Part shown: positions 12,184 through 12,609 of the stretch, piece after piece | How the letters are laid out: each line of letters opens with the position of its first letter | Position numbering within the stretch: position 1 is the stretch's first letter | Virus record (IMG/VR): IMGVR_UViG_3300035438_001155 | Span: 1 to 16,912 of that record | DNA: 16,912 nt | From: a virus | Strand: one strand, 5' to 3' | Program-made: the position numbers and the translations under genes | Notes under the pieces: model-generated | Told to the model about the DNA's origin: nothing | Databases searched by the model: none | What the model saw: the letters and a program-made list of their open reading frames with translations, nothing else

Positions 12184-12609
12184 TTACCATGCACAATTGT
12201 TCATGAGAGGCAGGTCGCTGAGGATAGGTGAAAGATCGTCCTTGCTGCCCAGAACCCAGGCACACACATCCACTGCCATCAAACAGAACCCACGCTCTGT
12301 GGTGCTGGGATAGGTGGGGTCACGCCACACACCTGCACTGCAACCCTGATCTCGCAGTTTTTCAATTTCTGCCACACACCACTTCATGGTTTCTTCATCG
12401 CAACTCAACACGATGGTGGTGCCCACACCCTCACATTCCTGTTCCCAGGTGTTGAGCACATCTTTTTGTGCCCTGGTGCCATGCTTGCGTACATGGTAGG
12501 TCATTCTTGTTCCTGCATGATGAGCATGTGCTGCTGCCTTGCCTGCGCCCAGGCTGGCCAGATCATTTCTCATCAAAACATATGCGTAAACGGGTGAATT
12601 CTTTTTCAT
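12184..12609 (-). CDS. PTH2-family (archaeal/eukaryotic-type) peptidyl-tRNA hydrolase-like protein
   Basis: Track start 12651 is TTG; first ATG at 12609. VYAYVLMRNDLASLGAGKAAAHAHHAG matches the recalled PTH2 core ([21 protein letters not shown]). TTIVLSCDEETM matches PKVVVKAPDEETL. The minus-strand promoter places the predicted start at or near this ATG, so the mRNA is possibly leaderless. Confidence 0.6.
   Translation of the reverse strand: MKKNSPVYAYVLMRNDLASLGAGKAAAHAHHAGTRMTYHVRKHGTRAQKDVLNTWEQECEGVGTTIVLSCDEETMKWCVAEIEKLRDQGCSAGVWRDPTYPSTTERGFCLMAVDVCAWVLGSKDDLSPILSDLPLMNNCAW

What the first reader, a model, noticed from the sequence alone, without database searches (positions are those of the whole stretch)
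12184..12609. PTH2-type peptidyl-tRNA hydrolase, with the promoter placing the start at the ATG (leaderless?)
PTH2 is the archaeal and eukaryotic peptidyl-tRNA hydrolase type; bacteria normally use the unrelated Pth. Motifs LMRNDL…GAGKAAAHAHHAG and IVLSCDEETM match the PTH2 core. The minus-strand promoter (TTGACA-N17-TATTAT, 12644-12616) predicts a start within a few nt of the 12609 ATG, which would make the mRNA leaderless. Together with TilS and the tRNAs this suggests the phage rescues stalled translation or recycles peptidyl-tRNAs produced by host defences.
Basis: partly seen in the sequence, partly recalled or inferred. Interest (0 to 1): 0.5.

Follow-up and report, generated by a model that had tools for sequence, protein, structure and literature searches.

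The report
Phage PTH2-like hydrolase on leaderless mRNA
A phage gene for a divergent archaeal/eukaryotic-type (PTH2) peptidyl-tRNA hydrolase sits so close to its promoter that its mRNA should begin at the AUG; relatives keep this layout, but both features are of kinds already known.

Summary
The minus-strand ORF 12184-12609 (141 aa) passes the Pfam PTH2 threshold. Its confident AlphaFold model matches only solved Pth2 structures. It keeps the Lys (K24) and Asp (D97) that align with the residues I recall as catalytic in Pth2.

It is a divergent member. It scores far below NCBI's Pth2 equivalog cut-offs and matches phrog_1866 over its full length. The family has about 1,000 clusters at 50% identity. 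Pattern-seeded scans of one genome per bacterial and archaeal species found almost no members. PTH2 in jumbo phages is already published.

The promoter is TTGACA-N16-TGcTATTAT (12644-12617), not N17 to 12616. Seven nt separate it from the ATG.

Twelve distinct related loci (50-95% protein identity) place a -10 hexamer 5-6 nt before the homologous ATG (one locus only under a manual reading), usually with a TTGAC-type -35. There is no Shine-Dalgarno sequence, and the spacers have diverged. In seven of 13 loci no other in-frame start exists upstream. Synonymous changes in codons 8-12 show that this stretch is translated.

A leaderless mRNA is therefore well supported by comparison, but it has not been mapped. 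The proposed role in translation rescue or counter-defence is inference. This is a new member of known kinds, of modest interest.

The parts
12639..12644 (-). -35 hexamer TTGACA of the PTH2 promoter
   Evidence: Consensus scan. TTGAC is kept in 8 of 12 related loci; the other 4 have a weaker TTG-type hexamer.
12617..12625 (-). Extended -10 element TGcTATTAT (TG 12625-12624, hexamer 12622-12617), 16 nt after the -35
   Evidence: A TA-start -10-like hexamer aligns at the same place in all 13 loci.
12609..12616 (-). Discriminator caggttt plus the predicted transcription start at A12609 (8th nt after the -10) or T12610. There is no Shine-Dalgarno sequence.
   Evidence: Sequence. Relatives have 5-6 nt here, and 12 of 13 loci have a pyrimidine just before the A. 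The TSS position is an inference from standard sigma70 geometry; it is not mapped.
12184..12609 (-). CDS of the 141-aa PTH2-like hydrolase. K24 is AAG at 12540-12538 and D97 is GAC at 12321-12319. Stop codon TAA is at 12186-12184.
11971..12180 (-). Conserved 69-aa Trp-rich ORF. It starts 3 nt after the PTH2 stop and has no SD, so it is probably the second gene of the same transcript, translated by coupling.
   Evidence: tblastn finds it at 33-51% identity on the PTH2 strand, downstream of PTH2, in L001, L003, L004, L016-L018 and L021-L023. Gene callers missed it in L012-L015.
12689..12716 (+). Divergent promoter TTGACT-N16-(TG)TATATT for the 94-aa gene 12757-13041. That gene has a leader of about 35 nt with a GAGGAG SD.
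   Evidence: Its reverse complement (gtcaa ... atata) is visible in the upstream DNA of the relatives.
12757..13041 (+). Divergently transcribed conserved 94-aa gene of unknown function, followed by an HTH_39 gene at 13164-13421. Both are syntenic partners of PTH2 in relatives.

Best explanation
The ORF 12184-12609 (-) encodes a 141-aa enzyme of the PTH2 superfamily. It belongs to a divergent branch found almost only in phages (phrog_1866). It most likely hydrolyses the ester bond of peptidyl-tRNA or N-blocked aminoacyl-tRNA. That would free tRNA during infection.

It is the first gene of a short operon (PTH2, then a conserved 69-aa ORF). The operon is driven by a strong host-sigma70-type promoter, TTGACA-N16-TGcTATTAT. 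The -10 element ends 7 nt before the ATG, so transcription should start at or 1 nt before the A of the AUG. The mRNA would then have no 5' UTR and no Shine-Dalgarno sequence. It would be translated by the leaderless route: direct ribosome binding to a 5'-terminal AUG.

Shown here: family, fold, conserved residues, promoter geometry and its conservation, and the identity of the start codon. Inferred: the exact TSS, the enzyme's substrate, and the benefit to the phage.
For: PTH2 family:
- PF01981 scores 29.6 bits against a gathering score of 23, and 65 of 70 diverse family members hit PF01981.
- The AF2 model has pLDDT 92.3 and pTM 0.86, with 4 strands and 4 helices.
- The Foldseek top 13 PDB hits are all Pth2 chains (1xty TM 0.85 by target, rmsd 2.5; also 3erj, 2zv3, 1wn2, 1q7s, 1rlk), and nothing else reaches E<=1e-3.
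- K24 aligns with Lys18 of S. solfataricus Pth2 in the GxGK motif. D97 aligns with the Asp of the Ta0108 QDRGY motif.
- D97, H31, G23 and G63 are invariant, and K24, R14 and D16 are at least 90% conserved, in 70 diverse members.

Start codon:
- Met1 is invariant in 30 homologues.
- In 7 of 13 loci no in-frame start exists upstream before a stop codon.
- Codons 8-12 change synonymously while the residues YAYVL are kept, and indels are multiples of 3.

Leaderless geometry:
- The promoter matches 11 of 12 consensus positions plus an extended -10.
- In 12 distinct relatives a -10 hexamer ends 5-6 nt before the ATG, with a -35 hexamer 16-17 nt upstream, while spacers and discriminators diverge.
- The background rate of such geometry at ATGs is 2.7%.
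- All 13 starts are ATG, none has an SD, and the first 40 nt are nearly unstructured (MFE 0 to -6.9 kcal/mol).
- These are the three determinants of leaderless initiation measured in PMC8459731.
- A -10 element abutting an ORF is an experimentally validated leaderless signature (PMC12340547).
- This is the only minus-strand promoter-like site in the 147-bp intergenic region.
Against: - No transcript 5' end is available. In the window the spacing is 7 nt, not the 6 nt of the relatives, so a 1-nt leader is possible. In model bacteria that already lowers leaderless translation.
- The host is unknown, so its capacity for leaderless initiation is unknown.
- Many genes in the window have weak or no SD, so the lack of an SD alone says little.
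- The protein scores far below the NCBIfam Pth2 equivalog cut-offs (20.6 against 126; 19.2 against 82).
- It is only 17-22% identical to solved Pth2 structures.
- The Pfam match stops at profile position 83 of 115. By my recollection of the canonical Pth2 sequence, the beta3-beta4 hairpin is longer here and DPTYP stands where canonical Pth2 has DAGxT.
- The substrate could therefore differ.
- The catalytic role of the Lys and Asp rests on my recollection of the S. solfataricus mutagenesis work. I could not retrieve that paper.
Confidence: 0.68

Rival explanations
1. The gene is real, but translation starts at TTG 12651, giving the 155-aa product that several public gene calls use. The TTGACA/TATTAT match would then be a coincidence inside the coding sequence, and the mRNA would have a leader from a promoter further upstream.
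For: The ORF is open back to TTG 12651. Public gene calls give 155 aa on 27 contigs (P0001) as well as 141 aa on 46 contigs (P0031).
Against: The 14-residue extension is absent or unrelated in all homologues, and Met1 is invariant. In L002, L020, L016, L022, L005, L025 and L006 an in-frame stop lies 12-33 nt upstream of the ATG with no start codon between. TTG 12651 has no SD either. The promoter hexamers are conserved at a fixed distance from the ATG while the sequence between them diverges. No other minus-strand promoter-like site lies in the intergenic region.
Confidence: 0.04
2. The promoter is as described, but the protein is a PTH2-fold enzyme that has changed substrate. It would not be a general peptidyl-tRNA hydrolase. 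It would instead be a counter-defence deacylase for modified aminoacyl-tRNAs (for example N-acetylated ones made by GNAT toxins), or would act on an unrelated ester.
For: - It fails both NCBIfam Pth2 equivalog models by a wide margin.
- The family is large: 1,077 cluster representatives at E<=1e-3.
- Two pattern-seeded scans of 185,579 species genomes found essentially no members.
- PHROGs lists the family as 'unknown function'.
- Many members carry long N-terminal extensions.
- By my recollection of canonical Pth2, the hairpin is longer and the Asp motif is altered (DPTYP where canonical Pth2 has DAGxT).
- A cellular Pth is known to detoxify toxin-acetylated aminoacyl-tRNA (title and abstract of PMC9241777).
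Against: The residues recalled as catalytic, and the whole fold, are kept, which is the usual sign of a retained reaction. N-acetyl-aminoacyl-tRNA is itself a standard Pth substrate, so this rival overlaps with the main explanation and differs mainly in biological purpose. No defence or anti-defence gene was identified next to it.
Confidence: 0.2
3. The mRNA has a leader. Transcription starts elsewhere, for example from a phage-specific promoter that the sigma70 scan does not recognise. The A/T-rich -10-like hexamer next to the ATG would then serve as an SD-independent translational enhancer or an operator, not as a promoter element.
For: Several genes in the window lack an SD, so SD-independent initiation on leadered mRNAs probably occurs in this host. 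Four relatives (L001, L003/L004, L018, L023) have poor -35 hexamers. An HTH_39 regulator is encoded nearby.
Against: A -35 TTGAC lies at 16-17 nt in 8 of 12 relatives, and the other four have an extended -10 TGn that can make up for a weak -35. The spacing of 5-7 nt is exactly what places +1 on the A. There is a pyrimidine at -1 in 12 of 13 loci. ATG is strictly kept, as leaderless initiation requires. In distant relatives that do have a leader (L009, L007), the same type of promoter sits further upstream, followed in L009 by a clear AGGAGG.
Confidence: 0.1

Closest known systems
Archaeal/eukaryotic peptidyl-tRNA hydrolase 2 (Pth2; S. solfataricus 1XTY, P. horikoshii 1WN2, A. fulgidus 3ERJ, human PTRH2/Bit1 1Q7S)
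   Same: It has the same alpha/beta fold with 4 strands and 4 helices. The N-terminal block xxRxDLxxxxGKxxAxxxHA and the Lys and Asp positions are the same. By my recollection of canonical Pth2 sequences, the hydrophobic C-terminal L-x-L motif is also the same.
   Different: It is only 17-22% identical. It is about 20-25 residues longer than the solved chains (141 aa against 115-120). By my recollection of the canonical sequence, the extra length lies mainly in a longer beta3-beta4 hairpin, and DPTYP stands where canonical Pth2 has DAGxT. It fails the NCBIfam equivalog models. It is encoded by a bacteriophage, not a cell.
PTH2 homologues of jumbo phages (Iyer et al. 2021, PMC7824862; Klebsiella phage RaK2 ORF188, PMC3622015; Caulobacter CcrSC-like, Brevundimonas vB_BpoS and Erythrobacter vB_EliS-L02 phages)
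   Same: It is the same divergent phage branch. tblastn gives 35-42% identity over more than 80% of the protein, and the hits are annotated peptidyl-tRNA or aminoacyl-tRNA hydrolase in some records. The proposed role in ribosome rescue is the same.
   Different: In the cultured phages inspected, the gene is internal to long same-strand operons with overlapping stops and starts. Here and in its closer metagenomic relatives it is the first gene after its own promoter, with the leaderless geometry.
Leaderless genes with the -10 element abutting the ORF (Deinococcus-Thermus, PMC12340547; Caulobacter leaderless mRNAs, PMC8459731; phage lambda cI from PRM, own knowledge)
   Same: A TANNNT-type -10 lies a few bp upstream of an ATG. 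There is no SD, the ATG is obligatory, and the 5' end is unstructured.
   Different: No 5' end has been mapped here. The host is unknown. A strong -35 is also present. The geometry is gene-specific within this window: only PTH2 among about 20 genes shows it. It recurs on other genes in related phages.

Membership tests
PTH2 (Pfam PF01981) | Score at or above Pfam's gathering threshold | tested here: met
   29.6 bits against 23, E 8.8e-7, protein residues 10-99 on profile positions 4-83 of 115. 65 of 70 diverse relatives also match.
PTH2 (Pfam PF01981) | Pth2 alpha/beta fold (four strands, four helices) | tested here: met
   The AF2 model has pLDDT 92.3, with elements E7-14, H22-43, H46-56, E65-70, H72-83, E91-104, E107-122, H123-130. 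The top 13 Foldseek PDB hits are all Pth2, with target TM-scores of 0.67-0.85. Fold description is from PMC11202043.
PTH2 (Pfam PF01981) | Conserved active-site Lys (S. solfataricus K18, GxGK) and Asp (D86) | tested here: met
   K24 aligns with K18 of 1xty, and D97 aligns with the Asp of Ta0108 QDRGY. D97 is invariant and K24 at least 90% conserved (Arg in some members) across 70 members. The catalytic role is from my memory of Fromant et al. 2005 and was not retrieved. Closeness of the two residues in 3-D was not checked.
Pth2 equivalog (NCBIfam TIGR00283 / NF003314) | Score above the curated equivalog cut-off | tested here: not met
   19.2 bits against 82, and 20.6 bits against 126. It should not be filed as an orthologue of archaeal Pth2, only as a member of the superfamily.
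Peptidyl-tRNA hydrolase (function) | Hydrolysis of peptidyl-tRNA or N-acetyl-aminoacyl-tRNA; complementation of pth(ts) | not testable with these tools
   No experimental data on any phage PTH2 were found in the literature searches.
phrog_1866 (phage protein family, function unknown) | Full-length HMM match | tested here: met
   E 1.2e-15, residues 3-136 on profile positions 4-125 of 126.
Leaderless mRNA | Promoter -10 element placed so that +1 falls on or next to the start codon | tested here: met
   The -10 ends 7 nt before the ATG in the window and 5-6 nt before it in 12 relatives. In L023 the automated best match ends 4 nt before the ATG; the 6-nt reading (TATATG with a TG just upstream) is my manual one.
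Leaderless mRNA | AUG (not GUG or UUG) as start codon, and no SD | tested here: met
   ATG in 13 of 13 loci, with no purine-rich SD in the 5-7 nt upstream. The requirement is described in PMC8459731.
Leaderless mRNA | Accessible, unstructured 5' end | tested here: inconclusive
   The MFE of +1..+40 is -1.6 kcal/mol in the window and 0 to -6.9 in relatives. This is low, but I did not compare it with a control set of leadered genes.
Leaderless mRNA | Experimentally mapped 5' end at the start codon | not testable with these tools
   No transcriptome data are available.

The most novel reading that the evidence does not exclude
The phage-restricted PTH2-like family (phrog_1866) may be a dedicated counter-defence enzyme, not a housekeeping copy of Pth2. 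It has about 1,000 clusters at 50% identity, and pattern-seeded scans of cellular genomes found almost no members. It would strip blocked acyl groups (N-acetyl-aminoacyl or peptidyl) from tRNAs that host abortive-infection toxins have poisoned or cleaved. In this clade, selection would have put it on a leaderless mRNA so that it is made at once, without SD-dependent initiation, even when the host has damaged canonical initiation.
Probability: 0.12. Interest if true: 0.65.

Novelty: new member of a known kind. Interest (0 to 1): 0.3.

Why it matters
PTH2 in large phages is already in the literature, and leaderless genes with a -10 element abutting the ATG are well known, so nothing here is new in kind.

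The useful points are practical:
- The correct start is ATG 12609. Many public gene calls use a 155-aa product that is too long at its N-terminus.
- The promoter-ATG geometry is conserved across a freshwater phage clade. It recurs on other genes in relatives: the 138-140-aa gene, the TilS-like gene and a dCMP deaminase. This gives a clean, testable set of predicted leaderless phage transcripts. It also hints that the unknown host translates leaderless mRNAs well.
- The phage PTH2 branch is large, seems to be almost entirely viral, and has not been characterised biochemically. A single activity assay would settle the annotation of roughly a thousand protein clusters.

Tried and rejected
- Megablast of 11000-14000 against cultured phage genomes found no match.
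- The viral-contig scan with the family alignment gave only one locus. The comparative set therefore came from the metagenome scan and exact-protein look-ups.
- Two genome-contig scans found nothing except a 434-bp low-coverage Corallococcus contig, which is probably contamination. These scans are seeded by short patterns, so absence from cellular genomes is suggestive and not proven.
- I tried to find a held paper stating the catalytic residues of Pth2. PMC2253226 is not held, and the search for Asp86 gave no hit. That point therefore rests on memory.
- I considered Met13 as the start. I rejected it because residues 7-12 form strand beta1 of the fold, are conserved as protein with synonymous codon changes, and Met13 has no SD in front of it.
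- I considered the 88-aa ORF 11690-11956 (-) as a third operon gene. I rejected it because it is not conserved outside near-identical contigs and it overlaps the convergent 146-aa gene.
- I looked for an intrinsic terminator after the 69-aa ORF. I found only a weak 8-bp hairpin at 11832-11851.
- I checked whether the leaderless geometry is general in this window. It is not: PTH2 is the only ORF of at least 40 aa that reaches the threshold.
- The host could not be identified.

Full report
**1. The observation**

The minus-strand ORF that ends at 12184 is open back to TTG 12651 (155 codons). The ATG at 12609 gives a 141-aa product, MKKNSPVYAYVLMRNDLASLGAGKAAAHAHHAG...IVLSCDEETM...LPLMNNCAW.

The promoter scan reports TTGACA (12644-12639), a 16-nt spacer, then TATTAT (12622-12617). 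It matches 11 of 12 consensus positions, and a TG lies one base upstream of the -10 hexamer, which makes it an extended -10. Seven nucleotides (caggttt) separate the hexamer from the ATG, and none of them resembles a Shine-Dalgarno sequence. This is the only minus-strand promoter-like site in the 147-bp intergenic region. A divergent plus-strand promoter (12689-12716) serves a 94-aa gene at 12757. That gene, in contrast, has a leader of about 35 nt and a GAGGAG SD.

**2. What the protein is**

- Pfam PF01981 (PTH2) is matched above its gathering score: 29.6 bits against 23, E 8.8e-7, over residues 10-99.
- An AlphaFold2 model built on 30 homologues is confident (pLDDT 92.3, pTM 0.86). It has four strands and four helices, which is the Pth2 topology described in PMC11202043.
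- Foldseek against the PDB returns 13 hits at E<=1e-3, and all are Pth2 chains: S. solfataricus 1xty (target TM 0.85, rmsd 2.5 A), P. horikoshii 1wn2, A. fulgidus 3erj, M. jannaschii 2zv3, T. acidophilum 1rlk and human Bit1/PTRH2 1q7s. Nothing else comes close.
- In a profile search of PDB sequences, K24 aligns with Lys18 of the S. solfataricus enzyme in the GxGK motif. D97 aligns with the Asp of the Ta0108 QDRGY motif.
- From my own knowledge of the S. solfataricus mutagenesis work, these two positions are the catalytic Lys and Asp. I could not retrieve that paper.
- Across 70 diverse relatives, G23, H31, G63 and D97 are invariant, and R14, D16, K24, W55, Y100 and P101 are at least 90% conserved.

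The protein is nevertheless a divergent member.
- It scores 19-21 bits against NCBI's two Pth2 equivalog models, whose cut-offs are 82 and 126.
- It is 17-22% identical to the solved enzymes.
- It is about 20-25 residues longer than them. By my recollection of the canonical sequence, the extra length lies mainly in a longer beta3-beta4 hairpin, and DPTYP stands where canonical Pth2 has DAGxT.
- It matches phrog_1866 ("unknown function") over its full length (E 1.2e-15).

An exhaustive profile search finds 1,077 cluster representatives at E<=1e-3. Many carry N-terminal extensions. Of 70 sampled, 65 hit PF01981. Two pattern-seeded scans of one genome per bacterial and archaeal species found only one 434-bp contig. 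The branch therefore looks essentially viral, with the caveat that those scans depend on short patterns.

The cultured relatives are jumbo Caulobacter and Brevundimonas phages and an Erythrobacter phage. They are 35-42% identical, and some are annotated as peptidyl-tRNA hydrolase. PTH2 in jumbo phages, and the idea that it rescues ribosomes jammed by cleaved tRNAs, is already published (PMC7824862; RaK2, PMC3622015). No experimental work on a phage PTH2 turned up.

**3. The start codon**

- Met1 is invariant in 30 homologues, and most gene calls start there.
- Public annotations of the identical protein are split between 155 aa and 141 aa.
- In seven of 13 distinct loci an in-frame stop lies 12-33 nt upstream of the ATG with no alternative start between them.
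- The codons for Y-A-Y-V-L, just before the invariant Met13, vary synonymously (TAC/TAT, GCA/GCC/GCT, GTT/GTG, TTG/CTG/CTC/CTT). Length differences are whole codons.
- These residues form strand beta1 of the model.

Translation therefore starts at ATG 12609. It does not start at TTG 12651 or at Met13.

**4. The leaderless arrangement**

I collected the homologous loci from metagenomes and assemblies and extracted the DNA upstream of the conserved ATG. In all 12 distinct relatives with 50-95% protein identity, a -10-like hexamer ends 5-6 nt before the ATG. The hexamers are TATCAT, TATAAT, TATAGT, TATATT, TAATAT, TAAAAT, TATAAC, TATACG, TATACC and TATATG. In one locus (L023) the automated best match ends 4 nt before the ATG, and the 6-nt reading is my manual one.

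Eight relatives have TTGAC(A/T/G) 16-17 nt further upstream. The other four have a weak -35 hexamer but an ATGC-TATA extended -10. In the multiple alignment, the hexamers and the ATG line up while the spacer and discriminator sequences differ freely. The base before the A is a pyrimidine in 12 of 13 loci. From general knowledge, that fits the Y(-1)R(+1) preference of RNA polymerase. The window has one extra base relative to all the others.

As a background rate, only 2.7% of all ATGs in these loci have a promoter-like match of comparable score ending 5-7 nt upstream.

All 13 start codons are ATG, none has an SD, and the first 40 nt are predicted to be almost unstructured. A 5'-terminal AUG, zero leader and an accessible start are the three measured determinants of leaderless initiation (PMC8459731). 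A -10 element abutting the ORF has been validated experimentally as the signature of leaderless genes (PMC12340547).

More distant relatives behave differently. L009 and L007 have the promoter further upstream, followed in L009 by a clear AGGAGG. L024 and the cultured phages carry the gene inside operons. The leaderless layout is thus a derived, conserved feature of this clade.

It is not unique to PTH2. In related phages the same geometry appears on the 138-140-aa gene next to the HTH_39 gene, on the TilS-like gene, on a dCMP deaminase and on several genes of L006. In the window itself, PTH2 is the only ORF that shows it. The 138-aa gene there has a 23-nt leader with a GAGGAG SD.

**5. Mechanism and context**

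The best reading is as follows. A host-sigma70-dependent promoter, probably early, fires at A12609 or T12610. The resulting 5'-AUG mRNA is bound directly by ribosomes. PTH2 is made, followed by a conserved 69-aa Trp-rich protein whose ATG lies 3 nt after the PTH2 stop. That ORF is at 11971-12180, is conserved at 33-51% identity in nine relatives, and was missed by gene callers.

The enzyme most likely cleaves the ester bond of peptidyl-tRNA or N-blocked aminoacyl-tRNA and so recycles tRNA. Why the phage needs it is not shown. The possibilities include drop-off from its many short ORFs, tRNA damage by host defences, and acetylating toxins.

The window does carry other translation-related genes. 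These are tRNA-Gln(TTG), tRNA-Arg(TCT), a third tRNA-like gene with an insertion, and a TilS N-domain protein that passes TIGR02432. They lie 5-12 kb away and are not co-transcribed with PTH2.

**6. Verdict**

Both the phage PTH2 and the leaderless layout are new instances of known kinds.

My confidence: PTH2-superfamily membership about 0.95; leaderless transcript (leader of 0-1 nt) about 0.75; peptidyl-tRNA or N-acyl-aminoacyl-tRNA hydrolase activity about 0.65.

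Noticed in passing
window 347-481 (+): The Rfam tRNA model hits this region (44.8 bits against a gathering score of 29), but ARAGORN missed it. It looks like a class-II tRNA, with a Leu-like acceptor and a long variable arm. It carries a structured insertion of about 53 nt in the anticodon loop right after CUCAGA. It lies between a strong promoter (268-296) and tRNA-Gln. It could be an intron-bearing or a disrupted tRNA.
   Followed up: partly
window 7155-9644 (+): An 829-aa protein has Major Vault Protein shoulder and vault-repeat domains. 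Its only phage-database homologues (37% identity, full length) are in uncultured huge phages of 462-735 kb. The window therefore probably comes from a large freshwater phage.
   Followed up: partly
window 6512-7114 (+): A 200-aa protein consists only of the TilS N-terminal PP-loop domain. It passes the TIGR02432 cut-off (122.5 bits against 93.6) but lacks the C-terminal tRNA-binding domains of full-length TilS. No tRNA-Ile(CAT) is present in the window.
   Followed up: partly
window 3873-5276 (+): A saccharopine-dehydrogenase-fold protein is 41% identical to the homospermidine synthase of Ralstonia phage phiRSL1. It is a polyamine-synthesis auxiliary gene.
   Followed up: partly
window 15720-16904 (gene 14085-16877, -): About 23 tandem copies of a 51-nt (17-aa) repeat lie inside a 930-aa tail-fibre-like gene with a C-terminal S74 chaperone domain. 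The repeat accounts for the periodic 'terminator-like' hits.
   Followed up: partly
window 13550-14018 (+); L018 5246(-), L001 5101(-), L023 2155(-), L016 5097(-): The conserved 138-140-aa gene (MTMHLL...) has a 23-nt leader with a GAGGAG SD in the window. In four related phages it has the leaderless promoter-ATG geometry. The two expression modes seem to be swapped easily within this phage group.
   Followed up: partly
window 11971-12180 (-): A conserved 69-aa Trp-rich ORF lies directly downstream of PTH2. It was not called in the public contigs L012-L015 but is conserved in nine related loci. Its function is unknown.
   Followed up: partly
window 11742-11771 (+): A strong promoter-like site (TTGACA-N18-AATAAT, 11 of 12 positions) points into the 3' end of the minus-strand PTH2 operon, with no plus-strand gene downstream. 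It may be an antisense transcript or a chance match.
   Followed up: no
window 2145-2987 (-) and 9965-10537 (-); L018 8853-10001, L023 6002-6459: The window has GIY-YIG/NUMOD3 and HNH homing-endonuclease-like genes. Related phages carry TnpB/OrfB_IS605 (Cas12f-like) genes at variable positions. Mobile elements are reshuffling this region.
   Followed up: no
window 3066-3093 (+): A perfect 12 of 12 sigma70 consensus promoter (TTGACA-N16-TATAAT) lies 24 nt upstream of tRNA-Arg(TCT) at 3117.
   Followed up: no
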